The notes beneath the pieces were generated by a model, which did not search any database, was not told where the DNA came from, and saw only the letters and a list, made by a program, of their open reading frames with translations. This document shows positions 3,988 through 34,478 of a stretch of DNA of 64,000 nucleotides, in pieces. This DNA is from Escherichia coli (GTDB taxonomy: Bacteria > Pseudomonadota > Gammaproteobacteria > Enterobacterales > Enterobacteriaceae): NCBI RefSeq assembly GCF_048403405.1, contig NZ_CP183129.1; one strand, written 5' to 3'. A program made the position numbers and the translations under genes. Within the stretch, counting starts at the first letter, position 1, and each line of letters starts with the position of its first letter.

Positions 3988-6900
3988 TTACGCCTTCTCA
4001 ATGTTGACTAAGAACGCTTTATATTCCGGCGTTTGCGAGTTTGCATCACCGACATTCGGCGTCAGAGTGTTAGCGATATAACCTTTACGCGCGACACCCT
4101 CAAAGCCCCAGTGGATTGGAATACCCACCGTTTCAACCTGCTGACCGTTTACATTCAGCGGCTTCAGACGGCGCGTTACCACAGCCACCGCGCGGATAAA
4201 GCCACGCTTGCTGGATACGGTGACACGGTCGCCATTGGCGATGCCTTTCGCCGCCGCCAGCGTTTCGCTGATTTCCACAAACTGTTCCGGCTGAGCAATG
4301 GCGTTGAGCAATGCATGCTTAGTCCAGGTGTGGAAGTGCTCGGTCAGACGATAGGTCGTACCCACATACGGGAACTGCTCTTTTTTACCCATCCGCAGCG
4401 CGTCTTGTTCATACAGACGAACGACCGGGTTAGACACCACGTTCGGATGCAGCGGGTTAGTGCCCAGCGGCGTTTCAATTGGCTCGTAGTGTTCCGGGAA
4501 CGGACCTTCCGCCATTTTGTTGATGGCAAACAGGCGTCCCATCCCTTCCGGCTGCATGATAAACGGTCCGGTTAGTGTACCTGGCGCGGCATTGCCGAAG
4601 TCCGGAATATCGTTACCCGTCCACTTGCTGCCGTTCCACTGGATCAGCATCCGTTTCGGATCCCACGGTTTACCGTTGATATCCGCCGAAGCACGGTTGT
4701 AGAGTACGCGACGGTTGAGCGGCCACGCCCAGGCCCATCCCAGCGTATTCCCCAGACCGGACGGGTCGGAGTTATCGCGGTTAGCCATCTGGTTGCCCTG
4801 CTCTGTCCAGCTACCGGTGTAGATCCAGCAAGAAGATGCGGTTGTACCGTCATCACGCAGATGCGCAAAGCTACTCAGCAACTGACCTTTCTTCGCAATC
4901 AGCACGCCATTGGCATCATAGAGATCTTCCAGCGCGTAGCCGTTGTTCTCTTTAGCTACTTCGTCAGATTGCGGTTCGTGCGGCTGCTTGTAGTTCCAGC
5001 TCATCTTCATCAGCGGTTCTACGCCTTTACCACCTTCGGCCTGGTACAGCTCGCGCAGATGATGGTAGATACCCGCCAGAATTTCGCCGTCGTTACGCGC
5101 TTCGCCCGGCGCGTCCTGACCTTTCCAGTGCCACTGCAACCAGCGACCGGAGTTAGCAATAGAACCATCTTCCTCAGCAAAGCAGGTCGAAGGCAGACGG
5201 AATACTTCAGTCTGAATAGACGCAGGATCGACATCGTTCGACTCGCCGTGGTTCTGCCAGAAGGTAGAAGTTTCAGTCACCAGCGGATCGATAACCACCA
5301 TATACTTCAGCTTGCTCAGGCAGCTTACCACTTTGTTTTTGTCCGGGAAGGACGCAACCGGGTTAAAGCCCTGGCAGAAATAACCGGTGACTTTGCCTTC
5401 ATCCATCATGTTGAAATACTTGATGACGTCGTAGGTCTGGTCCCACTTGGGCAGCCAGTCGTAGCCCCAGTTGTTCTCTTTCTGCGCAGCATCGCCGTAG
5501 AAAGATTTCATCAGGCTAACGAAGAACTTCGGATAGTTGCTCCAGTAGTTCACCTGATCAGCCAGCGTCGCTTTCGGCGTGTTCGCTTCCAGATACGACT
5601 GCAAATCAACCTGTTTTTCTGACGGCAGCGTCAGATAACCCGGCAGGCTGGTAGAGAGCAGGCCTAAGTCGGTCAGCCCCTGAATGTTGGAGTGACCACG
5701 CAATGCGTTCACGCCGCCACCGGCCATACCCATGTTACCGAGCAGTAACTGGATCATCGCCATAGTACGGATGTTCTGCGCACCCACGGTGTGCTGCGTC
5801 CAGCCCAGCGCGTAAAGGAAGGTGGTTGTGCGATCCGGTGCGCTGGTGGAGGCCAGCACTTCACACACTTTCAGGAAGTCGGCTTTTGGCGTACCACAGA
5901 TGTTTTCTACTACGTCCGGCGTGTAGCGGGAAACGTGCTCTTTCAGCAAGTTCCACACACAGCGCGGATGAGTCAGTGTTTCATCGCGTTTCGCATAGCC
6001 GTTTTCATCGAACTGATAGTTCCAGGACGATTTATCGTATTGACGTTTTTCAGCGTCGTAGCCGCTGAACAGACCGTCTTCGAAAGCAAAATCATCACGC
6101 ACCAGCAGACTGGCGTTGGTGTAATGCTTAACGTATTCGGCGTTGATTTTGTTGTTTTCGATCAGGTAGCGCAAAACGCCAGACAGGAACGTAATGTCCG
6201 TACCGGAACGAATAGGTGCGTAAATATCCGCTACAGAAGCGGTACGCGTAAAACGGGGATCGACAACGATCAAGGTTGCATCGTTGTTGTTTTTCGCTTC
6301 CATCGCCCAGCGGAAACCGACGGGATGCGCTTCAGCAGCGTTACCGCCCATCACCATTACGACGTTAGCGTTTTTGATATCCACCCAGTGGTTGGTCATC
6401 GCACCGCGACCAAATGTTGGAGCAAGACTTGCTACCGTTGGTCCGTGTCAGACGCGCGCCTGGTTGTCTACCGCCAGCATCCCGAGGGAGCGGGCAAATT
6501 TCTGGGTCAGCATCCCGGTTTCGTTGCTGGCACCGGAGGCACACAGCATACCGGTAGAAAGCCAACGGTTTACCGTTACGCCCTGCTCGTTCTTTTCAAT
6601 AAAGTTAGCGTCACGGTCAGCTTTCATCAGCTTCGCAATACGGGAGAATGCTTCATCCCAGCTAATGCGCTGCCATTTGTCAGAACCTGGCGCACGATAT
6701 TCCGGGTAGCGCAGACGGTTTTCGCTGTTGACGTAATCCAGCAAACCGGCCCCTTTCGGGCACAGCGCACCACGGCTTACCGGATGATCCGGGTCACCTT
6801 CAATGTGATAAATCGCTTCTCTGGCGTTTTTCGCGCCATCACCCAGGCTATACATCAATAGCCCGCAACCTACGGAACAGTATGTGCAGGTGTTACGGAT

Positions 6901-9547: not shown

Positions 9548-9676
9548 TTTAAGTGCTGCTGTATGACTCCTTAAGTAAAAATGAGCAATTTTTGATATTT
9601 CTGGTCACTCACCTCAATTAATATTCTTCCATACCCTCCGGGGACATCTTACTATAATATTTATTGATGTGTGATT

Positions 9677-10936
9677 ATGACCAATATTAATACAGCTTGT
9701 GTAAAAAATAATGCCAGTTATCAATTAAATAACGCATTACCTAACAAAGAAACCATCTCCAGCAATTTTTGTGAACGACTGGCAAAATGGGGTAATAAGT
9801 CGCTTAATAATGGTGAAGAAAGAGCAATTGCCGTAGAGCGAATTAAAGAAGCTTACAATTCGAACATGGCATCTCTTGATTTGTCATATCTTGATTTGAG
9901 TGAGTTACCGACTATCCCCTCGACAGTTAACACGTTAAATCTGGAAAACAATTGTCTCACTTGTCTTGACTTTACTGACAATGCCAGCCTCGTCAATATC
10001 AACCTCAGCTTTAATAAAATTAAAACGATAACCTTTCCAAATGAATCAAAACTGGAAAATATTTATATTGATCACAACAATCTGGAAAGTTTGGATTTAA
10101 AAAATCAGCATTCATTGGTTAACCTGGAAGCGCAAAATAACAATCTGACAAAAATTAACATTTCTGATAGTTATAAACTGAAATTTCTTAATCTTGATTA
10201 TAACAAGCTAGCATCGCTGGATCTCTCCCGGCAAGAATCTCTGATTGAGTTAAGTGCCCATCACAATATGATCACTGACCTTATATTACACAATCATCCC
10301 AGGATGAAAAAAATCACTTTAAACGACAACCATATTGCACATTTAAACGCGAAAACCACTACAAAGCTGGAATATTTAAACTTAAGCAATAACAATTTAT
10401 TGCCAACAGATGACATTGATCAATTAATATCATCAAAACATCTTTGGCATGTATTAGTTAACGGCATCAACAATGATCCACTTGCCCAAATGCAGTACTG
10501 GACTGCAGTAAGAAATATAATTGATGACACTAATGAAGTGACCATTGAATTATCTTATAACCTGGCAATCACAAATATCGATACCAGCGATGAACATCTT
10601 GTAGAAGTAAGCGAGAATTCCGAAGGAAATCATATAAAAGACAATGACTCAATGTCTATTCGTTATAGATCAAAATATTATTCCAGAGAGTACGATTTAA
10701 TAGAAGAAGAAACAATATTTTCTGACGCAGAACTAAAAGCCATTCTGCCTATGCATCGCATGTACGGGGTTGGTGACTATAAGTCAAATTCCTCTTCTCT
10801 ACCCTCACACTCGGGGCTAAAGGACCCAACGGGCACACCCGTCTGTTATTATATTCATAATGAGGATAAACCTTCCTTAGGTTATGGTTCAACACCCAAT
10901 AATTGGTTAAGCCAATCCTTTTCTACAGAGTTATAA
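9677..10936 (+). CDS. yddK: Leucine-rich repeat protein with an IpaH/SspH/YopM-like LRR N-terminal region; no signal peptide; no NEL ligase domain
   Basis: ORF 9671..10936 (GTG; ATG at 9677 chosen); N-terminal ...ERIKEAYNSNMASLDLSYLDLSELPTIPSTVNTLNLENNCLT followed by about 21-22 aa LxxLxLxxNxL repeats; AT-rich; symbol by position relative to K-12 yddK. Confidence 0.75.
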   Translation: MTNINTACVKNNASYQLNNALPNKETISSNFCERLAKWGNKSLNNGEERAIAVERIKEAYNSNMASLDLSYLDLSELPTIPSTVNTLNLENNCLTCLDFTDNASLVNINLSFNKIKTITFPNESKLENIYIDHNNLESLDLKNQHSLVNLEAQNNNLTKINISDSYKLKFLNLDYNKLASLDLSRQESLIELSAHHNMITDLILHNHPRMKKITLNDNHIAHLNAKTTTKLEYLNLSNNNLLPTDDIDQLISSKHLWHVLVNGINNDPLAQMQYWTAVRNIIDDTNEVTIELSYNLAITNIDTSDEHLVEVSENSEGNHIKDNDSMSIRYRSKYYSREYDLIEEETIFSDAELKAILPMHRMYGVGDYKSNSSSLPSHSGLKDPTGTPVCYYIHNEDKPSLGYGSTPNNWLSQSFSTEL

Positions 10937-10997
10937 AACACATCCTGATTTATCAAGGGTGATAAATCAGAAAAGAAAGTATTACTACGGAGCAGTT

Positions 10998-23895: not shown

Positions 23896-25872
23896 ATGCA
23901 GCTTAATCATATCGTTAAAAGTCTGCTAATAACGGGATTATTCACCACCAGTTCTTTACCTCTCCTCGCGGCGGAAGCTCCTAAAGACGCCACCGCAGCC
24001 ACGCAACAAGCAAACAATTTACTCTACAACCAGTTGCCGTTTGCCGATAACACTGACTTTACTGATGCCCATAAAGGTTTTATTGCCCCTATCCCTCAAG
24101 ACGTGATTAAGGGCGAACAAGGGAATGTTATCTGGGATCCACAACATTACGCTTTTATCAAAGAAGGCGATAAAGCCCCTGATACGGTGAATCCGAGTTT
24201 ATGGCGTCAGGCGCAACTGATAAATATCAGCGGGTTATTCGAAGTAACTGAAGGTGTCTATCAGATTCGCAATCTCGATCTATCAAATATGACCATCATT
24301 GAAGGCAAAGAGGGTATTACCGTCGTTGATCCCCTTGTTTCAGCAGAAACAGCCAAAGTGGGTATGGATCTCTATTACAAAAATCGCGGCAAAAAACCGG
24401 TAGTGGCGGTTATCTATACACACAGTCATGTCGATCACTACGGTGGTGTTCGTGGCGTAATTGATGAAGCTGACGTTAAATCAGGCAAAGTTAAAATCTA
24501 TGCGCCAGCCGGATTTTTGGAGGAAGCCGTTTCCGAAAACATCATGGCTGGCAATGTTATGAGCCGACGAGCCAGTTATATGTATGGCAACTTATTGAAA
24601 CCTGATGTTAAAGGCCAGGTGGGGGCTGGACTGGGAACGACTACTTCAGCAGGAACAGTCACGTTGATTGCTCCTACTAACTACATCACCAAAACCGGAC
24701 AAAAAGAAACTATTGACGGGTTGACTTATGATTTCCTGATGGCGCCAGGTTCTGAAGCGCCTTCTGAAATGCTGTGGTTTATTGAAGAAAAGAAACTGAT
24801 CGAAACCGCTGAAGATGTCACGCACACCCTTCATAACACCTATTCGCTGCGTGGGGCTAAAATTCGCCAACCGCTGCCGTGGTCAAAATATATTAATGAA
24901 GCTCTCAATTTGTGGGGTGATAAAGCCGAGATTATTCTCGCTCAACATCACTGGCCAACCTGGGGCAACGATAACGTGGTCAAACTGCTTAAAAGCCAGC
25001 GTGATTTGTATCGTTACATCAATGATCAAACTCTGCGCATGGCTAATCAAGGGATGACCCGTGATGAAATTGCCGCAAACTTTAAACTGCCCTCTTCACT
25101 GGCTAACACCTGGGCGAATCGCGGCTATTACGGTTCGGTAAGTCATGACGTGAAAGCAACTTACGTGCTTTATCTCGGCTGGTTTGATGGTAACCCCGCG
25201 ACGCTTGATGAACTGCCGCCAGAAGAAGGCGCAAAAAAATTCGTCGAGTATATGGGCGGTGCTGATGCCATTTTACAGAAAGCCAAACAGGATTATGACC
25301 AGGGTAATTTCCGCTGGGTTGCCCAAGTTGTTAGTAAGGTGGTGTTTGCCGATCCAAACAACCAGGCAGCGAGAGATCTGGAAGCTGATGCGCTTGAGCA
25401 GTTAGGCTATCAGGCTGAATCTGGGCCGTGGCGTAATTTCTATCTCACTGGTGCACAGGAATTGCGTAATGGCGTACAAAAATTACCAACACCAAATACT
25501 GCCAGCCCAGACACCGTGCGTGCGATGACGCCGGAGATGTTCTTTGATTATCTTGCCGTCCATATTAATGGTGAGAAAGCGGCAGATGCCAAAACCGTGT
25601 TGAATTTCGATTTTGGTGAAGATGGCGGCACCTATAAAGTGGAGCTTGAAAATGGTGTTCTCAATCATACCGCTGGTGTAGAGGCTTCGGATGCTGATGC
25701 CACTATCACTCTGTCTCGTGATGTATTGAACAAAATTGTACTGAAAGAAGAGACGCTGAAAGAAGCCACGGCCAAAGGAGATGTCAAAATTACTGGCAAT
25801 GAGGAAAAACTCAACGAGCTGTTAGGTTATATGGATAATTTTGAATTTTGGTTCAATATAGTGACACCATAA
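23896..25872 (+). CDS. Periplasmic alkyl/aryl-sulfatase-like protein (metallo-beta-lactamase fold, SdsA1/YjcS family)
   Basis: 658 aa; signal peptide MQLNHIVKSLLITGLFTTSSLPLLAA; MBL motif YTHSHVDHYGG; C-terminal SCP2-like region; not at this position in K-12 as I recall it. Confidence 0.8.
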   Translation: MQLNHIVKSLLITGLFTTSSLPLLAAEAPKDATAATQQANNLLYNQLPFADNTDFTDAHKGFIAPIPQDVIKGEQGNVIWDPQHYAFIKEGDKAPDTVNPSLWRQAQLINISGLFEVTEGVYQIRNLDLSNMTIIEGKEGITVVDPLVSAETAKVGMDLYYKNRGKKPVVAVIYTHSHVDHYGGVRGVIDEADVKSGKVKIYAPAGFLEEAVSENIMAGNVMSRRASYMYGNLLKPDVKGQVGAGLGTTTSAGTVTLIAPTNYITKTGQKETIDGLTYDFLMAPGSEAPSEMLWFIEEKKLIETAEDVTHTLHNTYSLRGAKIRQPLPWSKYINEALNLWGDKAEIILAQHHWPTWGNDNVVKLLKSQRDLYRYINDQTLRMANQGMTRDEIAANFKLPSSLANTWANRGYYGSVSHDVKATYVLYLGWFDGNPATLDELPPEEGAKKFVEYMGGADAILQKAKQDYDQGNFRWVAQVVSKVVFADPNNQAARDLEADALEQLGYQAESGPWRNFYLTGAQELRNGVQKLPTPNTASPDTVRAMTPEMFFDYLAVHINGEKAADAKTVLNFDFGEDGGTYKVELENGVLNHTAGVEASDADATITLSRDVLNKIVLKEETLKEATAKGDVKITGNEEKLNELLGYMDNFEFWFNIVTP

Positions 25873-25886
25873 ATTTACTGCATACC

Positions 25887-25909
25887 GGGCAGGTATCCTG
25901 CCCTTTTTT
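25887..25909 (+). terminator. Rho-independent terminator after the sulfatase gene
   Basis: gggcagg-tatc-ctgccc followed by TTTTTT, 15 nt after stop. Confidence 0.8.
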
Positions 25910-25918
25910 GGTTAAAAA

Positions 25919-27016
25919 ATGGCTGAACGAAGAAAAACGCATCACTCATGGAAAACCCGCCGCGATATGGTTATTCGCGGCATGACGATTAGTTTGCCAT
26001 GGTTTGCTTTTATCAATGTCAGTTTTGCATTGATAATTTTGCTGCGCCGTGTTCTGTTTAATGACCTTACTCCACCCTGGTTAAATGAAAAAAGCCTTAT
26101 ACATTCTATTGATATATCTGCAACGGGTATTCTGCTGATTTGCAGTGGTTTACTACTCATCCCTCGGCAAAAAACATTACCTATCCAGGTGCTATTAGTT
26201 GCCCTGAGCCTGCTATGGTCATGGTGTAGTTATCACTTTATTGCGTACTGGACGCTGCAGTTTGCTTATCCACTATGTGTATTATTAATGCTTAGTGGCG
26301 TTGTCGCACTTTATTTCCATACCCCATCATTGCTCGCATTTGTCATTCCCTTATGGTTCACCACTCCAATAGCGAGTCTTATGCTTAATCAACAGATCAA
26401 TATTCATTTTGCTGTTGTATGGTGTATTTTTTCACTGGCGCTATATGGTGGGCGACTCATTTTGTTACGTTGGTTTGAAGAAGCATGGGTACAAAACAGT
26501 TATAACAACCAGTTAATTAATCGCCTTGATGCATTAGCACATCGTGATCCTTTAACTGGGATAGCAAACCGACGTGCAATGAACAGTATCTTACACGACG
26601 CGATGGATAACGGCGGGTCATTTGCTCTTATTATGCTGGATGTCGATTTTTTTAAACGTTACAACGACACTTACGGGCATCCTGCTGGGGATCGTTGTCT
26701 AATACAAGTTGCCGACGCTCTACAGCGTTCAACTCGCCAGTCGGAGGATGTTGTTGTCCGTTATGGTGGCGAAGAGTTTGCCATCATACTTTTTAATGCA
26801 ACATTGCCGGAAGCAGAGACGGTAGCAGCCAGAGTGAAGCAAGAACTTAAACTGGCAGCTATCCCACATCAGGCATCTGCTGTTAATGCATTTGTTACGG
26901 TTAGTCAGGGGATTACCTGTTCTGCTCCCGCAAAAACGGCTGAACAAATTATTTCAGATGCCGACGCTGCGTTATACCGGGCGAAAGAAAGTGGGCGAAA
27001 TCGATGGGCTTTATAA
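25919..27016 (+). CDS. Membrane-anchored GGDEF diguanylate cyclase (multi-TM N-terminal sensor-like domain)
   Basis: 365 aa; about 6 predicted TM helices then GGDEF domain with RYGGEEF active-site motif and D-x-LTG; start codon uncertain (ATG at 25919 lies 10 nt after a terminator U-tract with no SD). Confidence 0.8.
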   Translation: MAERRKTHHSWKTRRDMVIRGMTISLPWFAFINVSFALIILLRRVLFNDLTPPWLNEKSLIHSIDISATGILLICSGLLLIPRQKTLPIQVLLVALSLLWSWCSYHFIAYWTLQFAYPLCVLLMLSGVVALYFHTPSLLAFVIPLWFTTPIASLMLNQQINIHFAVVWCIFSLALYGGRLILLRWFEEAWVQNSYNNQLINRLDALAHRDPLTGIANRRAMNSILHDAMDNGGSFALIMLDVDFFKRYNDTYGHPAGDRCLIQVADALQRSTRQSEDVVVRYGGEEFAIILFNATLPEAETVAARVKQELKLAAIPHQASAVNAFVTVSQGITCSAPAKTAEQIISDADAALYRAKESGRNRWAL

Positions 27017-27089: not shown

Positions 27090-27641
27090 CTATCTTCTTA
27101 GCGATGTCTTTCTGGTATCACATTGGATCGGTGCAATTATTTTTCCTTTAATACCCATTATGTTAAGAAATTCAGAAACAGCTGTAATCTCATTGTTTTT
27201 TTCATTCGTCTTGATCTTACAAGGAATCTGACTGTGCATTATTGAGAACACACTAATAACGTGAATCGCTCCCTTGCGACGACTCTTGTCATAAGAGTAC
27301 CGGAGCGTTTTTCCATCAATTGCAATGACGTCTTTATCATCTGAAGAATGGCAGTCAAGCATCCAGTTAATAAAGCACTCATGAAATTTTTCAGGACTGA
27401 TACAGGATACAACTCTGGCAATGGTATCGTGAACAGGAATACCATTATCAAAATCACCATATTGCTTCAAAAAATCGAGATGTGTTTCCCCAAAATCCTC
27501 TATATCTTCCCAGCCTTCTGCACCCGAAATAACGGCACAAATAGTCAACAGTAGAATATCCGATAATTTATGTTCCACTTTCCAGGCTTGTCTGTAATCG
27601 GGGATAATAGAAATATGTCCCATCAATTTTTTAAGTTCCAT
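27090..27641 (-). pseudogene. ISAs1-family (H-repeat, YhhI/YdcC-like) transposase, 3'-truncated fragment
   Basis: N-terminal about 166 aa match the H-rpt protein ([12 protein letters not shown]...[11 protein letters not shown]...IDGKTLR) then the frame diverges and stops; full-length homologs are about 378 aa. Confidence 0.8.
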
Positions 27642-28226: not shown

Positions 28227-28712
28227 TCATATTTTTAATATAGCCCCATGAGCTATAGGATCAAAACCTTCTAACCATGAGGTGTTTTTATCGAATAATG
28301 CACCTGTTATATTTATATCGCCATATCTATCACATAATAAATTAGCGCCACATAAGTCAGCACCAGAAAAATTTGAATCTTTAACGTCTGCATTGCAAAA
28401 GGTTGAATTAGTTAATATAGCACCCTCAAAGTTTGCACCTATTGACCTTGAATTACTAAAGTCACTTCCAGTGAAATCTGAGTTATTAAGAATAGCGTTC
28501 ATCAGAGCCGCATTGCGAAAGACAGCATTTCTAGTTGATGTATGTTGAATCATTACATTTCTTAAATGGGAATTTTCAAATTTCGCCCCATCAAGACAAT
28601 AACCATTGAGGATGGCACGATGTAGATCCATCCCGCTAAAATCATATCCAGCAAGAGTGGTACTATCTATATCAAGAAATTTATTGGTTATTAAAAACGC
28701 GATTCTTATCAT
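28227..28712 (-). CDS. Pentapeptide-repeat protein; putative cognate immunity protein of the adjacent Rhs toxin
   Basis: 161 aa; tandem A(D/N)(L/F)xx pentapeptides ([11 protein letters not shown]..., [33 protein letters not shown]); start ATG overlaps Rhs stop (ATGA) so translationally coupled; AT-rich. Confidence 0.8.
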
Positions 28713-31700
28713 CTATTCCCCCAATCATCTAACTCCGGAAAAATTTGGCTAAACGGATATAGTGGTGCCGATAATGGACGCGTACCTGGCCGCTCAGGAG
28801 GAAGTTTATCACATAACAGACCCGCAACCATCCTGTGATTACCATTAACAATCACATTCCCATCCATATCAACCGGTGGTGCTCCACTACCATCTTCCAG
28901 CATTTGTACGTAGTGAGCTACTACGGGTACTGAGACTTTTTGTTGTACTGTCAACAAGGGACTGTTGGCCACAACCATCCTGATGTTTTCAGGTGTCGTA
29001 GGTAAACATTTAGTCTTCTCTTGACTAAAGGTATCATCCCACAATTTTGTTAAACCCATCACTGCCTGTTGTCTGTATTTATCCATGGGGTCAGCAATCA
29101 ACCAAGATGGACCTGACTGCTCTATGGAATCTTCTCCGGAGAGACCCAACGGATCTATCTTAGTAGTTGGATTCAATGGATACTGATACAGGTTCCATGC
29201 ACCTCTTAGCCCAATGGGATCCTGGGTGATATACCGCCCCTGCAACGGGTCATAGTACCGGTTGCGGTTATAGTACAGCCCCGACTCCTCATCATACTGC
29301 TGCCCCGGCAGACGGTACGGCTGTTGCAGTTGCTGCGCGCTGGTTTCGCCCAGCAGGTTTCCCCACTCGTCATACTCCCCCTGCCACGCCGTTTCCCCTT
29401 CCGGGCTGATGAGCGCCTGCGGCAGCCCCCGGTGGTCGCAGTGGTAAAGATGAAGTGTCCTCTCCGGGATGTATTCCGCCTCCATCTGGTTTTTCATCTG
29501 TTCCGCCGTCAGCCCGCACTGCTGAAGCCATGCCTCACTCTCCGCACTCACCGCACCCGCGCGCAGTTCCCGCTCCAGCCTCCCCAGCATCACCGACAGC
29601 TCCGCCGGTAGCGTCACCCCCGTGTCCTCCTGCAACACCTCCGCCAGACTCCGGTGCCGCGCCTTCGCCTGTTCACCATTCTCTGTTTCGATTCTGATGA
29701 GCGGCGTGAAGCTCCCCGGCTGGTATACCGTCTGGATACGCGTGGTGCCGGTCTGTACCGTCGTCAGCCTGTCACCGTCCCACCCGTACCAGGTCTCCTC
29801 CGGTTTACGCGACAGCGACATCCACCCCGTCAGGTCACGCTCCCGCCGCCACACCCGTTTCCCCGTCCGGCGGCCCAGCGGGTCATAGAGGTAGCGGCTC
29901 TCCACCTGTGGCTCGCCGTGCTGTATCCGCGTGTAGAACACCAGGCGGTGCTGGCTGTCGTAATGGTAGTGGTGCGTCCGCTCGTCGTGCATCCGTATCA
30001 CCCCTTCCGGGATACGGTCCGTCTTCTCCGCCAGCCTGCCGTATTCATCGTAGCGGTAGACATAGTGCGCATCTTCCGTGATGCGGTTATCCGGCCACGC
30101 CGTGAAGGTGCTGTCCGGGTGCAGTTCCGGGTCCGGCAGCCGGTTTCCTGCCGGGTCCGTCGCATACGGGATATCGATATCCAGGTTCGCCGCCGTGGTG
30201 TGAACGCCCGTCAGTCTTCCCGTGTCGCTGTAACGGTACTTCCGGCTCTCCTGCGGGCCGCTGATGCGCACCAGTTGCCCGTTATCGTTCCACGTATACT
30301 CACGGTCAAGCTGCGGAAGGTTCAGGTGCCTGCTCCGGAGCTGCCCTGTGAGGGTGTACGCCGTGGCCTGTTCGTACCCCGCTGTACTGCCCGCCCCGCC
30401 GAAGCTGCGGGCCGTCTCACGGTGCAGCCGGTCCCGCGTGTACTCGACCAGCGGCGTTCCGCCCAGCTTCATCCCCGCAAGATAACCGCTGCCATACGTC
30501 AGCCACTCCACCGGCGGCAGACCGTCCGGCTCCTGACGGGTCGCCAGCCCCTGTTCGCTGTAGACGTGCCTCGTCTCATGCTCCCACAGCATCTCCCCCG
30601 TCTCCTGGTTCTCCACCGTCTGCCGTTCGCCCGTCAGGCGGCCTTTATCGTCATAGCCGTAGTGGACCGCCACACGGTGGCCTTCGCTCAGGTGGCTGAT
30701 TTCTGTCAGCCAGCCGTGGTCGTCATACTGCCACTGCTCCGCCGGGTCGCCGTTCACCGTCCGGTGCGTGATGCGCCCGGCGTCATCGTAGTACCACTGC
30801 GTGACCTGCCCCTCATCCTCGCTGCGGATGAGCTGCCCTGTGGCGCTGTACCGGTAACGCTGTGTCCTGCCGTCAAAGCCGCGCTGCTCCGTCAGCCTGT
30901 CCACCGGGTCATACCGGAACGTGGACTGGCTGCCGTTCTCGTTGGTCAGCACGGTGATGCGCCCGGCGGCGTCATACTCCATGCTGCGCGTCAGTCCGCC
31001 CTGCGTGGTGCTGACGGCCTTTCCCCACGCATCATACTGTGTCTCACTCCGGCTGCCGTTCGGGGCAATGATAGCGGTGAGGTCGCCTGCGGCGCTGTAC
31101 TCATAACGGGTTTCACGTCCCTGCGCATCCTTCTGACTGACCAGTTGACCACGCGGGTTATAACTGCTGTAAGTGCTGATGCCTTCCTCCCGGTGAACCG
31201 CCGTCCTCTGACCGTACCGGTCGTATTCATACCGCGTCGTGTACCCTGAACAGTCCGTAAATGCCTGAAGCTGACCGTACCGGTTTCGCGTTATTCTCCG
31301 CCTCACCCCGGTTCCGTCTTCCACCGCACAGGGCAGGCCACTGCGGGAAGAATCATAAAACCAGCGCGTAATGTTACCGTTGCGCGAGACCTCTTCCGCC
31401 AGCCTGCCCTGACGGTCATATTTCCGGCTGCGGCGCAGCCCGTCCGGGTACGTCACTGACGTCAGTTGCAACTGGTTGTTGTAACCATACCGTACCGTCC
31501 TGCCGTCCGGCAGTATCACTGAAGTCAGCTTTCCCGACGCCATATGCAGCCGGTACTCCGTCCGCCGTCCCGCCGCATCCGTCTGCGCCTTCAGCCTCCC
31601 CGCCTCATCATACTCGCTGCGGGTGATGCTCCCGTCCCCATACTCCTTCTTCACCACCCGCTTCAGGCCGCCCTCGCCCTCCGTGTACAGCACCTCCCGC

Positions 31701-32920
31701 CGGTTCAGGCTGTCCGTGATGGTCACGCGGTCCTGCCCGTACTCAAAGCGGTAGTCCAGCCCCTCCGGGTTGACCTGCTCCGTCACCCGACCGGTATCAT
31801 CATACCGGTAGCGGCTCTCCGGCCTCCCCGCATAATGGTGCGCCACCATCCGCCCGGCGTGCTCCGCATCATAAGTAAACCCGCGCACCTGCGTCCCGCT
31901 GCGGTCATACACCGCCCGCAGTTCTCCGCTGGCCGTGTACGTGTAGCGCGCCAGCGGCGCAGTCGGCAGTTCATCCGGGTATGCCGGGTCGTGTGTCAGC
32001 CATACCGCCTCCAGCCGGATACCGTTATCGGCACCGTACTCTGTACCGGTGGGCAGCGTGTCGGGGAAAAACTGAGAAGAGGAAACAGAACGGGGACTGG
32101 CCGGAGAAGATAAAGAAGACTCGCGCTGTTTACGGAAGGCTTTCGCCCGCTGCGCCTGTGTGGTCAGCGCCAGATGAAAACGGCGGCCCGCGCCGTCCGT
32201 CACCCCCGTCACCGCGCCCGCCGCTTCCCCCTCTGCCGCCCGGTGGAAGGCCAGCGTCCGCCCGAAGCCGTCCACCACGCCCGTCAGCACCCGGTATGCG
32301 GGCGGCTCCGGCGGCAGCACCTCGTCCGCCTCCGGCACCCGCTCCGGCCAGCCGAGTATCCACCACGGCCCCTGAAGGCTGTTTGTCGCCAGGTACACAT
32401 GCGGGCTTAAGCGGAGACTCTCCGGCAGCACCTGCCAGAGCGCGCTTAGCGGCTGCGAACTGTGCTGCTCCGCCACCCCGCCCCTTGCCAGCCAGAACGA
32501 CTCGCTGCGGCTGTAGCTTATCTCGCCGGGAAACAGCGGCTCAAAGTGAATGCTCCTGCCGCCACTGTCGTTGAGTATCAGTTCCCGCTCATGAACCTGT
32601 AAGCGGATATCGAAGGGCGCTTTCCAGCCGGGACCAAACACCCCCACCGGCGCGGGTGTCCTGGTCCGGTAGCTGCTGTAGGCGCGGGAAAGAATAAACG
32701 GCAACGGGCCGGGCAGCGCAAGATCCGTCTCGCCCGGCAGCACCTTCGCACCCAGTAGCGGGTTCACCGGGTTACCCTTCTGCTCCTCCACCGGGCTGTT
32801 GGGACACACCGAGCAGGCCACTCCCGTCGGCGCACCTATCAGCACCCCCGCTGAACCCTGCACAATATCCAGTCCCTTGCGGGTCATATCGCCCTGTCGC
32901 GCCGCCGGTTTTCCGCTCAT
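28709..32920 (-). CDS. Rhs-family polymorphic toxin (PAAR-containing N-terminus, YD-repeat shell, DPLGL-delimited variable C-terminal toxin tip)
   Basis: 1403 aa; N-terminal [13 protein letters not shown]...[12 protein letters not shown]; many YD repeats ([18 protein letters not shown]...); conserved PxxxxDPLGL just before the last 143 aa; GC-rich core, AT-rich tip. Confidence 0.93.
28712..29140 (-). other. Rhs C-terminal variable toxin domain (last 143 aa), family not recognised
   Basis: Sequence after DPLGL: [10 protein letters not shown]...VVAHYVQM...[17 protein letters not shown]...ELDDWGNR; base composition drops relative to the Rhs core. Confidence 0.6.
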
Positions 32921-33341: not shown

Positions 33342-34478
33342 TCATGAAGGCCCGCAGCCAGCAAGGATTAGAGAAAGGTATTCATTCTTACGTCCTGCCC
33401 GCTTTTGCTTGCGTTTAATACCCGCTTTAAAGCTATTCTCTGCGGTCAGTAAATTCATCGCGATATGTCGACAAACTGCCAGATTTTCTCCCGCTTCTCC
33501 ACGAACAATCTGGCATTCATCTTCCCGCATCCCCATATCAAGTCGCCAGTGCAGTTGATTTTCTACCGACCAGTGTGCTCGTGTTGCTTCCAGGAGTTCT
33601 TTCGCCGTAAGCGTCACCGAACTTATGTAGTAGCGAAGAATACACTTCTCTGATTTCACCGCTGTTTCTCCTTCCTGTCTGCTCGCCAGCACTATTCCTA
33701 TCGTGCTCAGCTCTGACCATTCATAAGCTAAATCACCCAGAGCGGTTAAATCATGGCTCACAATGCAGCATCGTGTATCTTCCCGTCCATGCCCTTTTTC
33801 CTGCGTGCTGTAACTGTCATACCTCTCACCCAGCCACATTGTCGGCGAGTACCCGTTATCAAACGCCTCCGCTAATTTTCCCTGATTTCCTTTCAGCGCC
33901 AGCAGGTAACCGGCTTTCTTTTTCAGAATTTCACGGGCGATTATATGCTGGCAACCCATTGCATCCAGCGTGACCAGACACCCTTTTAATTCCAGCAACT
34001 GGAGCCGTTCCGGGATCGCCGTTATCTCATTCGATTTTGCCCCTGTTTTCACCTGCCCCAAAACCAGACGATTTTCTGCGCTAAAAGCACTGACCCTATG
34101 GATCACGGCATTACGTTTCGATTTATCGTAAGTACCCCGTAATGACTTACCATCAATCGCCACAACAGAGCCTTCAGACAACGTGTGACAGTCCTTCATC
34201 TACTGGATAAAAAGGGGCTGTAATTGTTTTGCTGAAATCATTCCCATCACTCGGGCAATCGTGTGATGGGAGGGGGTGCCATTTTCAAAATCACCATACA
34301 GGCGTAACCATTCCAGATGCTCCTCACCAAAATCAGCAATTTCTTCCCATCCTTCAGCGCCACCGATAATGGCGGTGATCGTCAGAAAAAGGATATCCGC
34401 CAGGCTGTAACTGGTTTTCCAGGACTGGCGATAATCGTGAATAATTGAAATTTGATCCAAAAGGCTTAGTCCGTTCAT
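33342..34478 (-). pseudogene. ISAs1-family (H-repeat) transposase gene inactivated by a single in-frame amber codon
   Basis: ORFs 34200..34478 (92 aa) and 33342..34199 (285 aa) are in the same frame separated only by TAG at 34200..34202; together 378 codons, the length of an intact H-rpt protein; the stop sits where homologs have Trp (…FINW-MRDCH…). Confidence 0.85.

What the first reader, a model, noticed from the sequence alone, without database searches (positions are those of the whole stretch)
28712..29140. Rhs C-terminal tip of unrecognised family with a compositional break
The last 143 residues share none of the YD-repeat character of the core, and base composition drops sharply at the DPLGL boundary, as expected for a swapped toxin cassette. 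I cannot assign it to a toxin family by eye; a motif ...VVAHYVQM...NGNHR... is weakly reminiscent of HNH/EndoVII-type nuclease tips, but that is speculative.
Basis: partly seen in the sequence, partly recalled or inferred. Interest (0 to 1): 0.65.

Follow-up and report, generated by a model that had tools for sequence, protein, structure and literature searches.

The report
ParB-like Rhs toxin, pentapeptide-repeat immunity
The end of this E. coli Rhs protein is a swapped-in toxin module that looks like a small nucleotide-binding ParB/sulfiredoxin domain, not an HNH nuclease, and it is almost always paired with an unusual DNA-mimic-type (pentapeptide-repeat) immunity protein.

Summary
The Rhs ORF (28709..32920, minus strand) matches the RHS core model up to residue 1260 (DPLGL). 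The last 143 residues are unrelated to the core. GC falls from 0.64 in the core to 0.45 in the tip and 0.35 in the next gene.

The tip has no Pfam, NCBIfam or PDB sequence match, but it is not an orphan. Its last ~100 residues form a C-terminal domain found in at least 329 protein clusters on Rhs, HINT and CdiA-like carriers across many phyla.

The overlapping downstream gene (28227..28712) encodes an acidic 161-aa pentapeptide-repeat protein. This pairing recurs in 51 of 61 loci from other species.

A shorter subclass of the toxin is instead followed by small HAD phosphatase-like proteins. This suggests, but does not prove, that the toxin makes a phosphoester.

K-12 rhsE/ydcD carry a different tip and immunity pair. 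I rate this a new variant of a known kind, of moderate interest.

The parts
29141..32920 (-). Rhs core (residues 1-1260), ending in the DPLGL boundary motif (codons 29141..29155)
   Evidence: NCBIfam RHS_core NF041261 covers 1-1260 at 2513 bits, with YD repeats and Rhs_assc_core at 1183-1260. GC is 0.64. DNA homology to K-12 rhsE ends at 29145.
29009..29140 (-). Tip residues 1-44: a variable linker predicted to be unstructured, between the cleavage motif and the toxin domain
   Evidence: pLDDT is 52-62. Most homologues do not align over this stretch; the family match starts at about residue 43.
28712..29008 (-). Tip residues 45-143: a ParB/sulfiredoxin-like toxin domain of the 'DWGN-tail' subclass
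28832..28846 (-). N99-G100-N101-H102-R103: the predicted phosphate-binding P motif (ParB Box II, GxxR)
   Evidence: G100 is invariant. H102 and R103 are at least 96% conserved and N101 is 85% conserved across 131 representatives. The motif is identical to G105-N106-H107-R108 of ToxB, where G105A and R108A abolish toxicity.
28227..28712 (-). Candidate immunity gene: an acidic 161-aa pentapeptide-repeat protein, whose ATG overlaps the rhs TGA (ATGA)
   Evidence: Pfam Pentapeptide PF00805 and PF13599 match. The model shows a regular beta-helix at pLDDT 97-99. A homologous gene sits in the same position in 51 of 61 loci from other species. pI is 5.2; the family median is 4.8.
27090..27641 (-). Truncated ISAs1 (H-repeat) transposase fragment closing the rhs element
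   Evidence: NCBIfam transpos_ISAs1, E 9e-50 over profile positions 1-142 of 314. RefSeq annotates it as an incomplete pseudogene in an identical locus.

Best explanation
The 143-residue tip is an exchangeable Rhs toxin cassette. After a ~44-residue flexible linker comes a ~100-residue domain of the ParB/sulfiredoxin superfamily.

Its invariant G-N-H-R motif sits at the start of a helix, where ParB, sulfiredoxin and ToxB hold the phosphates of a nucleoside triphosphate. The most likely working model has four steps:
1. The tip is released from the Rhs shell at DPLGL and reaches the target cytoplasm.
2. It binds an NTP, ATP by analogy with ToxB and sulfiredoxin.
3. It poisons the cell through NTP-dependent chemistry (hydrolysis or phosphoryl transfer), not through an HNH-type DNA cut.
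4. The producer is protected by the acidic pentapeptide-repeat beta-helix protein encoded by the overlapping downstream gene. That protein probably binds the toxin and blocks its substrate or active-site face.

Shown here: the cassette structure, family membership, motif conservation, the fold assignment (moderate strength) and the conserved toxin-immunity gene pairing.

Inferred only: delivery, NTP binding, the chemistry, the cellular target and how the immunity protein neutralises the toxin.
For: Cassette:
- The core model ends at residue 1260.
- Homology to K-12 rhsE ends at 29145, with a GC/GC3 break.
- The K-12 tip and ydcD are unrelated to this pair.
- The same tip plus immunity gene is found in 143 of 5426 E. 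coli genomes.

Family:
- 329 clusters at E<=1e-3 and 117 at <=1e-10, with the domain always at the C-terminus.
- The carriers have RHS, YD-shell, PT-HINT, DUF637 and DUF6443 regions. 55 of 151 have a PxxxxDPxG motif within 200 aa upstream.

Fold:
- The AF2 model has pLDDT ~97 over residues 45-140.
- Foldseek against AFDB finds relatives named ParB/Sulfiredoxin, down to 15-25% identity at E~1e-6.
- Two members hit DUF1015 faintly (E~0.05). From memory, DUF1015 belongs to the ParB Pfam clan.

Motif and collinearity:
- hhalign against ToxB gives 85% probability on the P motif. The global alignment lines up TxQ/SMQ(Q60), P, ML, AP, GN and GNHRMVA.
- Human sulfiredoxin aligns in the same register: helix, PPIDV versus PPVDM, GGCHRYAA versus NGNHRMVAG.

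ToxB biology: ATP binding is essential, G105A and R108A are non-toxic, and ToxB is not a nuclease.

Immunity:
- The downstream protein is a pentapeptide-repeat protein.
- 51 of 61 loci in other species have a homologous gene of ~160 aa in the same slot, including a P. aeruginosa locus.
- The start/stop codons overlap as ATGA.
- Remnants of this gene lie in the orphan immunity array at rhsA in other strains.
Against: - No member hits Pfam ParBc (PF02195).
- hhalign against a single sulfiredoxin sequence gives only 13% probability.
- Confident similarity to ToxB is limited to 14 columns. ToxB's essential Y81 and W134 have no clear counterparts, and the residue aligned with M76 is not conserved in the family.
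- The E. coli tip has N at position 99, where 94% of the family has D or E. Its activity could therefore differ.
- A fused toxin-linker-immunity AF2 model gave pTM 0.65. This neither supports nor excludes direct binding.
- No biochemical data exist for any member of this family in the literature I could search.
Confidence: 0.68

Rival explanations
1. The domain is a ParB-like DNase. It cuts or nicks DNA in the target cell, and the pentapeptide-repeat protein protects the producer by mimicking B-form DNA and occupying the DNA-binding cleft.
For: - Zhang et al. 2012 proposed a nuclease role for Tox-ParB domains.
- Pentapeptide-repeat proteins such as MfpA and Qnr are DNA mimics (established knowledge; NCBIfam similarity).
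- The immunity proteins are consistently acidic, with median pI 4.8 and net charge -7.
- GH-E His-Me nuclease Rhs toxins are also neighboured by YjbI-like pentapeptide-repeat genes (PMC5714182).
Against: - ToxB, the only studied toxin with the same GNHR motif, does not degrade DNA or induce SOS.
- The toxin domains are not consistently basic. Median net charge is +1, and the E. coli domain has pI 5.1 and net charge -3.
- The conserved residues (Q66, S70, G100, H102, R103) match nucleotide-phosphate contacts, not a typical two-metal nuclease site.
- HAD phosphatase-like partners in the short subclass are hard to explain for a nuclease.
Confidence: 0.17
2. The toxin attacks DNA gyrase or another topoisomerase. 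The pentapeptide-repeat protein protects the target rather than binding the toxin, as McbG, AlbG and Qnr do for gyrase poisons.
For: - All well-studied pentapeptide-repeat resistance or immunity proteins act on gyrase (established knowledge; weak NCBIfam similarity to MfpA/Qnr).
- ToxB causes nucleoid collapse and segregation failure without DNA damage, and its authors list topoisomerases among possible affected systems.
- The fused model gives no confident toxin-immunity docking (pTM 0.65).
Against: - At 161 aa the protein is shorter than Qnr or MfpA, and it scores far below their NCBIfam cut-offs (33-37 bits versus 240-460).
- The immunity sequence diverges along with the toxin, which is what a cognate binder would do (38-45% identity across fused toxin+immunity pairs).
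- Other subclasses of the same toxin use unrelated immunity proteins, HAD-like or helical. That fits toxin-directed or product-directed protection better than protection of a universal target.
Confidence: 0.08
3. The tip is an HNH/EndoVII-type nuclease.
For: Only the presence of a conserved histidine in the NGNHR motif.
Against: - No HNH-type Pfam or NCBIfam hit for the tip or for 67 family members.
- The predicted order of elements is helix-strand-helix-strand-strand-helix-strand-strand, with the His at the N-terminus of a helix. There is no beta-beta-alpha finger and no conserved Cys/His metal ligands.
- Structural neighbours are ParB/Srx proteins.
Confidence: 0.02

Closest known systems
ToxB, the ParB-CTPase-fold ATPase toxin at the C-terminus of CdiA in Erwinia amylovora and other Enterobacterales (bioRxiv 10.64898/2026.05.05.722872)
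   Same: - A ~100-residue C-terminal polymorphic-toxin domain.
- An identical [E/D/N]-G-N-H-R-M-V-A P motif.
- A collinear arrangement: TxQ (ToxB Q60, a phosphate contact), Pro, the ML helix, the AP strand, the GN turn, then GNHR.
- Both are cytoplasmic toxins neutralised by a small protein encoded immediately downstream.
- A ToxB-like sequence is also named 'Rhs family protein' in Leclercia.
   Different: - It is a separate sequence family. hhalign is confident on only 14 columns, and identity is about 25% in the global alignment.
- The hairpin before the P motif is shorter, and the C-terminal third differs (PP..PGT..P..D..DWGN versus QEIYK..GSW..).
- ToxB's essential Y81 and W134 have no clear counterparts.
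- The carrier here is Rhs/DPxGL, not CdiA/VENN.
- The immunity proteins are unrelated: a 161-aa pentapeptide-repeat beta-helix versus the 112-aa iToxB.
- ToxB was found through PF02195. This family does not hit PF02195.
[quoted passage not shown] 2012, PMC3482391)
   Same: - A predicted ParB fold with a DG(H)HR-type motif.
- Carried on RHS, filamentous haemagglutinin, MafB-type and HINT-containing proteins.
- The same broad spread of phyla.
- One homologue also carries Ntox10, whose immunity family Imm27 is listed for Tox-ParB.
   Different: - The immunity families listed for Tox-ParB are Imm20, Imm27 and Imm-SuFu. Pentapeptide repeats are not mentioned anywhere in that paper.
- The motif here is DGNHR (N in 85%), not DGHHR.
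- I could not confirm that this exact family was in their set, because the supplementary alignments are not held.
Sulfiredoxin, free serine kinase (SerK) and SbnI: ParB/Srx-fold ATP-dependent phosphotransferases
   Same: - The order of elements and the register match human sulfiredoxin: helix, PPI-V strand, second strand, G-x-H-R helix.
   Different: - The sulfiredoxin catalytic Cys (GGCHR) is Asn here.
- Sequence similarity is not significant (13% hhalign probability).
- The substrates are unrelated, and those enzymes are housekeeping proteins, not toxins.
Pentapeptide-repeat proteins MfpA, Qnr, AlbG and McbG (DNA mimics that protect gyrase)
   Same: The immunity candidate is an acidic right-handed beta-helix of pentapeptide repeats, with weak NCBIfam similarity to MfpA, Qnr, HetL and Alr5209.
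   Different: - It is far below every curated cut-off.
- It is shorter (161 aa) and has its own conserved caps: N-terminal I-x-I-x-F-E-T-G...L-H-R-A and C-terminal T-x-W-P-x-G-F-D-P...G-A-I.
- It is genetically tied to a toxin cassette, not to a small-molecule gyrase poison.

Membership tests
Rhs C-terminal toxin cassette (polymorphic toxin) | Conserved RHS core ending in PxxxxDPxGL, followed by a variable tip | tested here: met
   RHS_core covers 1-1260 and Rhs_assc_core covers 1183-1260. DPLGL lies at 29141..29155.
Rhs C-terminal toxin cassette (polymorphic toxin) | Homology and composition break at the boundary; different tips at the same locus in other strains | tested here: met
   Homology to K-12 rhsE ends at 29145, and the K-12 tip and YdcD are unrelated. 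GC falls from 0.64 to 0.45 to 0.35.
Rhs C-terminal toxin cassette (polymorphic toxin) | Small cognate immunity gene immediately downstream | tested here: met
   A 161-aa ORF with an ATGA overlap. The pairing is conserved in 51 of 61 loci. The immunity function itself was not tested.
Rhs C-terminal toxin cassette (polymorphic toxin) | Tip is toxic and is neutralised by the downstream protein | not testable with these tools
   This needs expression and competition assays.
ParB/sulfiredoxin superfamily (Tox-ParB class) | ParB/Srx alpha/beta fold | tested here: inconclusive
   [not shown]
ParB/sulfiredoxin superfamily (Tox-ParB class) | G-x-x-R phosphate-binding motif (Box II; DGHHR in Tox-ParB) at the start of a helix | tested here: met
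   G100 is invariant. H102 and R103 are at least 96% conserved. Helix 101-109 starts at the motif.
ParB/sulfiredoxin superfamily (Tox-ParB class) | Match to Pfam ParBc PF02195 or a related model | tested here: not met
   No hit for the tip, even at E<=10, nor for 67 members. Two members hit DUF1015 faintly at E~0.05.
ParB/sulfiredoxin superfamily (Tox-ParB class) | Immunity of type Imm20, Imm27 or Imm-SuFu, as listed for Tox-ParB | tested here: not met
   The downstream protein is a pentapeptide-repeat protein. That paper does not mention such proteins.
ToxB (CdiA ParB-fold ATPase toxin) | GNHR P motif | tested here: met
   N-G-N-H-R-M-V-A-G versus E-G-N-H-R-M-V-A-A.
ToxB (CdiA ParB-fold ATPase toxin) | Whole-domain sequence homology to ToxB, including the C-motif residues M76/Y81 and W134 | tested here: inconclusive
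   hhalign gives 85% probability over 14 columns and 66% in global mode at 25% identity. M80 aligns with M76 in the E. coli tip but is not conserved in the family. There is no counterpart for Y81 or W134.
ToxB (CdiA ParB-fold ATPase toxin) | iToxB-type immunity protein | tested here: not met
   iToxB (112 aa, recovered from gBlock142) shows no similarity to the pentapeptide-repeat protein.
ToxB (CdiA ParB-fold ATPase toxin) | ATP binding and hydrolysis; nucleoid compaction without DNA damage | not testable with these tools
   This needs biochemistry and microscopy.
HNH / EndoVII (His-Me finger) nuclease | Beta-beta-alpha-metal finger with a catalytic His and metal ligands; match to HNH-type models | tested here: not met
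   No model hit. The predicted topology and structural neighbours are ParB/Srx-like.
Pentapeptide-repeat protein (immunity candidate) | At least 8 contiguous pentapeptide repeats forming a quadrilateral beta-helix | tested here: met
   PF00805, PF13599 and PF13576 hits span residues 18-125. The model shows a strand every 5 residues from about residue 150 to 275 of the fusion, at pLDDT 97-99.
Pentapeptide-repeat protein (immunity candidate) | Orthology to Qnr or MfpA (gyrase protectors) | tested here: not met
   Scores of 32-37 bits against curated cut-offs of 240-460.

The most novel reading that the evidence does not exclude
The toxin is an ATP-dependent kinase (phosphotransferase), not a mere ATPase or a nuclease. 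It puts a phosphate on a nucleic acid or on a nucleic-acid-associated macromolecule.

Three lines of evidence point this way:
1. Its closest fold relatives with known chemistry are ATP-dependent phosphotransferases (sulfiredoxin, serine kinase).
2. In the short subclass of the same toxin family, the overlapping downstream gene encodes a small capless HAD phosphatase-like protein. It belongs to the DUF705 / baculovirus 38K-like group, and all catalytic motifs (DxDxT, S/T, K, DD) are conserved. Distant stand-alone relatives pair with a second, unrelated HAD family (HAD_SAK_2, from RNA-repair proteins).
3. The main subclass pairs with acidic pentapeptide-repeat proteins, which are DNA-mimic shaped.

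On this reading the HAD proteins would be enzymatic antidotes that remove the phosphate, and the pentapeptide-repeat proteins would be substrate mimics. If true, this would also explain why ToxB's slow ATPase activity does not account for its toxicity.
Probability: 0.25. Interest if true: 0.8.

Novelty: new variant of a known kind. Interest (0 to 1): 0.55.

Why it matters
ParB-fold toxins have only just been shown experimentally to exist (ToxB, 2026 preprint), and how they kill is unresolved.

This locus shows that a much larger and more widespread sister family rides on Rhs and other carriers, including in about 2.6% of complete E. coli genomes. That family uses immunity proteins of informative kinds: DNA-mimic-like pentapeptide-repeat proteins and, in a sister subclass, HAD phosphatase-like proteins.

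These partners turn a vague question (what does the nucleotide-binding fold do?) into concrete experiments:
- Look for a phosphorylated, nucleic-acid-like substrate.
- Test whether the HAD partner reverses the modification.

The finding also suggests that pentapeptide-repeat proteins are an overlooked general class of polymorphic-toxin immunity proteins. They also sit next to GH-E nuclease toxins, where a 2017 survey reported finding no immunity gene.

If none of this holds, the finding is still a clean annotation of an unannotated toxin-immunity pair.

Tried and rejected
Searches that found nothing:
- Pfam on the tip plus flank gave nothing; the OCRE hit at E 0.12 is noise.
- Pfam on 67 family members found no family.
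- NCBIfam and PADLOC on the tip gave nothing.
- PDB sequence search with the tip and with the family profile gave only chance hits at E>0.3, for example SRP54.
- Foldseek against PDB was not significant.
- The word-indexed protein search with the tip found only two fragments. Full Rhs proteins are probably clustered under representatives with other tips.

Comparisons that came out negative or unresolved:
- K-12 rhsE/ydcD: the tip and immunity are unrelated to this pair.
- A single-chain AF2 model of toxin domain, 25-aa Gly/Ser linker and immunity protein, with a paired alignment of 30 loci, modelled both domains well. But pTM was 0.65 and no coordinates or PAE were available, so direct binding is undecided.
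- The charge argument for DNA binding fails: the immunity proteins are acidic but the toxins are not consistently basic, so it does not discriminate.

Sequences I could not obtain:
- The Zhang 2012 supplementary alignments are not held.
- Stenotrophomonas Tse6/Tsi6a (bioRxiv 10.64898/2026.07.13.738213) has a pentapeptide-repeat-like immunity protein. No sequence was available, so I could not test whether Tse6 belongs to this family.

Rejected ideas:
- HNH/EndoVII (see rival explanations).
- A decayed or inert remnant. The ORF and its immunity gene are intact and at least 99% identical in 143 genomes.
Full report
**1. What is in the sequence**

The window is the rhsE locus of an E. coli strain. 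An identical stretch in RefSeq genome NZ_CP042899.1 lies between yncE-ansP-yncG and pptA-yddH-nhoA.

One minus-strand ORF, 28709..32920, encodes a 1403-aa Rhs protein. NCBIfam's RHS element core model (NF041261) matches residues 1-1260 from end to end (2513 bits). The RHS-associated core domain matches 1183-1260. The conserved part therefore ends at DPLGL (codons 29141..29155), and the finding's 143 residues (28712..29140) are the variable tip.

The next ORF, 28227..28712, starts with an ATG that overlaps the rhs TGA (ATGA). A truncated ISAs1/H-repeat transposase fragment follows at 27090..27641.

**2. Observation check**

Composition:

| Region | GC | GC3 |
|---|---|---|
| Rhs core | 0.64 | 0.78 |
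| Tip | 0.45 | 0.38 |
| Downstream gene | 0.346 | 0.24 |

The GC jump around 29140-29240 is 0.14-0.19 between adjacent 429-nt windows. That is the 98th percentile for this 64-kb window. Only the rhs start at 32920 is sharper.

DNA similarity to the K-12 rhsE core (82% over 1058 nt) continues to window position 29145 and then ends. The K-12 rhsE tip and YdcD have no similarity to this tip or to the downstream protein.

GC begins to fall about 100-150 nt before the DPLGL codons, inside sequence that is still conserved.

**3. The tip belongs to a large family that has no library model**

Pfam, NCBIfam, PADLOC and PDB sequence searches return nothing for the tip.

An exhaustive phmmer search of 1.84 billion cluster representatives finds 329 proteins at E<=1e-3, of which 117 are at <=1e-10. 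The match covers tip residues ~43-143 and always lies at the extreme C-terminus of proteins of 73-2388 aa.

The N-terminal parts of these proteins carry RHS, YD-shell, pretoxin-HINT, DUF637 (haemagglutinin/CdiA-type), DUF6443 and DUF6531 regions. 55 of 151 have a PxxxxDPxG motif within 200 residues upstream. This is the signature of a polymorphic-toxin domain.

A scan of one genome per species found 64 loci. They come from Neisseria, Aggregatibacter, Pseudomonas, Achromobacter, Pantoea, Budvicia, Bacteroidota, Bacillota, Myxococcota, Actinomycetota, Verrucomicrobia and others.

**4. Fold**

With a 67-sequence alignment, AlphaFold2 gives pLDDT ~97 for residues 45-140 and 52-62 for the first 44. 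The order of elements is helix, strand, helix, strand, strand, helix (starting at N101), strand, strand.

- Atu1540
- Arabidopsis sulfiredoxin
- human sulfiredoxin
- SbnI
- free serine kinase
- PadC
- KorB
- a pNOB8-like ParB-N domain

Foldseek against PDB is not significant. Foldseek against AFDB50 finds family members and more distant small proteins (15-25% identity, E~1e-6) that UniProt names 'ParB/Sulfiredoxin domain-containing protein'.

hhalign against human sulfiredoxin aligns the expected elements in register: helix KVQSLVDTIRED with [17 protein letters not shown] with PPVDM, and GGCHRYAA with NGNHRMVAG. The probability is low (13%).

I take the fold assignment as probable but not proven. 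The HNH/EndoVII idea has no support.

**5. Closest characterised relative**

A May 2026 preprint (10.64898/2026.05.05.722872) describes ToxB, a ParB-CTPase-fold domain at the C-terminus of rare CdiA proteins.
- ToxB binds and slowly hydrolyses ATP, at about 300 per hour.
- It needs G105 and R108 of its G-N-H-R motif for toxicity.
- It compacts the nucleoid without cutting DNA or inducing SOS.
- It is blocked by iToxB, which occludes the active site.
- The authors state that the true mechanism is unresolved.

I recovered the ToxB core and iToxB sequences from the paper's gBlock table.

ToxB reads ...YYISEGNHRMVAA... and the E. coli tip reads ...[12 protein letters not shown].... Profile-profile comparison gives 85% probability, but only over 14 columns. 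In global mode the two align collinearly at 25% identity and 66% probability, through TxQ/SMQ (ToxB Q60, a phosphate contact), Pro, ML, AP, GN and GNHR.

ToxB's essential Y81 and W134 have no clear counterparts. iToxB (112 aa) is unrelated to the protein downstream of this tip.

So this is a sister family to ToxB, not ToxB itself. It probably falls in the 'Tox-ParB' class that Zhang et al. defined in 2012. The carriers, the spread of phyla and a DG(H)HR-type motif agree. That paper lists other immunity families and never mentions pentapeptide repeats.

**6. The immunity candidate**

The 161-aa downstream protein is a pentapeptide-repeat protein. It hits Pfam PF00805, PF13599 and PF13576. It has weak similarity, below every cut-off, to Alr5209, HetL, MfpA and Qnr. 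Its model is a regular beta-helix at pLDDT 97-99.

In the 64 loci from other species, the gene in the same position is homologous to it in 51 of the 61 loci where a downstream ORF could be called. These genes are typically 158-166 aa and often overlap the toxin stop codon. A small P. aeruginosa plasmid shows the same pair.

The immunity proteins are acidic (median pI 4.8, net charge -7). The toxin domains are not consistently basic.

Fragments of this immunity gene, 95% identical and including the last 36 nt of the tip, sit in the orphan immunity array at the rhsA locus of other E. coli strains. That is what one expects of a displaced toxin-immunity cassette.

Whether the protein binds the toxin directly is undecided. 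A fused toxin-linker-immunity model gave pTM 0.65.

**7. An unexpected lead**

The family splits into two subclasses:
- A 'DWGN-tail' subclass, 99 of 131 representatives, which includes the E. coli tip.
- A short subclass ending ...L-x-I-x-P, 17 of 131 representatives.

Rhs-linked members of the short subclass are not followed by pentapeptide-repeat genes. In L008, L032, L071/L072, L076 and L077 the next gene encodes a ~115-aa capless HAD phosphatase-like protein, and in L032, L071/L072, L076 and L077 it overlaps the toxin stop by 4 nt. It has conserved DxDxT, S/T, K and DD motifs. Several members match DUF705, the family of the baculovirus 38K protein.

Distant stand-alone relatives in Bacteroidota pair with a different HAD family, HAD_SAK_2 (E 1e-22 to 1e-26). 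A third, helical, immunity type also exists in L075 and L078.

The DUF705-like family is large (921 clusters) and also occurs away from toxins. The link is therefore suggestive, not exclusive.

Two unrelated phosphatase families with intact catalytic motifs sit in the immunity slot of one toxin fold. That fold's characterised relatives are ATP-dependent phosphotransferases. Together this makes a kinase-type toxin with enzymatic antidotes a real possibility. I put it at about 25%.

**8. Verdict**

The tip is a genuine, exchangeable Rhs toxin cassette. Its active part is most likely a ParB/sulfiredoxin-type nucleotide-binding domain related to ToxB and Tox-ParB. Its partner is a pentapeptide-repeat immunity protein.

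What is shown and what is inferred:
- Shown: family membership, motif conservation and gene pairing.
- Moderately supported: the fold.
- Inferred: the chemistry, the target and the immunity mechanism.

One caution applies to the E. coli copy. It has N at position 99, where 94% of relatives have D or E.

The cassette occurs in 143 of 5426 complete E. coli genomes at >=99% identity.

I rate it a new variant of a known kind and of moderate interest. The interest lies mainly in the immunity partners, which make the open question of how ParB-fold toxins kill directly testable.

Noticed in passing
L002 8001-8320 (E. coli SCU-102, rhsA locus between yibF and yibA): Other E. coli strains carry broken remnants of this pentapeptide-repeat immunity gene, 95% identical over 320 nt and including the last ~36 nt of the toxin tip. 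They sit inside the orphan immunity array downstream of rhsA, next to NTF2-fold, DUF6258 and Imm57 immunity genes. Most genomes with the intact pair also have a second matching place, which I did not locate.
   Followed up: partly
L032 348-704; L008 1173-1529; L071 837-1184; L076 2716-3063; L077 2772-3125: A short subclass of the same toxin domain (ending ..L.I.P, without the DWGN tail) is followed by a ~115-aa capless HAD phosphatase-like protein (DUF705 / baculovirus 38K-like). In most of these loci the gene overlaps the toxin stop. The protein keeps the DxDxT, S/T, K and DD motifs and takes the place of a pentapeptide-repeat protein.
   Followed up: yes
L054 3875-4809; also L062 and L063: Bacteroidota have stand-alone ~110-150-aa relatives of the toxin domain (DGHHRY motif) that are not attached to Rhs. 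Each is followed by a HAD_SAK_2 (PF18143, RNA-repair type) phosphatase-like gene. This may be a separate two-gene module.
   Followed up: partly
L075 5184-5510; L078 about 3990-4330: A third, apparently helical ~108-aa protein occupies the immunity position after short-subclass toxins that have the VDGNHRYVAFRLC motif.
   Followed up: no
window 28844-28846 (tip residue N99): The E. coli tip has Asn immediately before the G-N-H-R motif, where 123 of 131 relatives have Asp or Glu. ToxB has Glu there (E104). The effect on activity is unknown.
   Followed up: no
P0152 (Leclercia adecarboxylata fragment): A protein 93% identical to the ToxB core is named 'Rhs family protein' by NCBI. The ToxB-type domain described on CdiA may therefore also travel on Rhs carriers.
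   Followed up: no
literature: PMC5714182 section 'Group 14 (GH-E)'; bioRxiv 10.64898/2026.07.13.738213: GH-E His-Me nuclease Rhs toxins are reported to be neighboured by YjbI-like pentapeptide-repeat genes, while 'no immunity gene' was found. A Stenotrophomonas Rhs effector (Tse6) has a pentapeptide-repeat-like immunity protein, Tsi6a. Pentapeptide-repeat proteins may be a general, under-recognised class of immunity proteins.
   Followed up: partly
window 23896-27016: Compared with K-12, this strain has an alkyl/aryl-sulfatase gene (23896..25872) and a GGDEF diguanylate cyclase gene (25919..27016) between the H-repeat fragment and pptA. K-12 has yncI and ydcC there.
   Followed up: no
window 33342-34478: A second ISAs1-family transposase pseudogene lies just upstream of the rhs start, so the rhs element is bracketed by H-repeat/ISAs1 remnants. 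The coordinates were converted from the annotation of the identical RefSeq locus.
   Followed up: no
window 9671-12251: A low-GC stretch (0.34-0.38) encodes two leucine-rich-repeat proteins of 421 and 430 aa, between a porin gene and a nitrate/nitrite transporter-like gene. They are probably the yddK/yddJ-type genes of this region.
   Followed up: no
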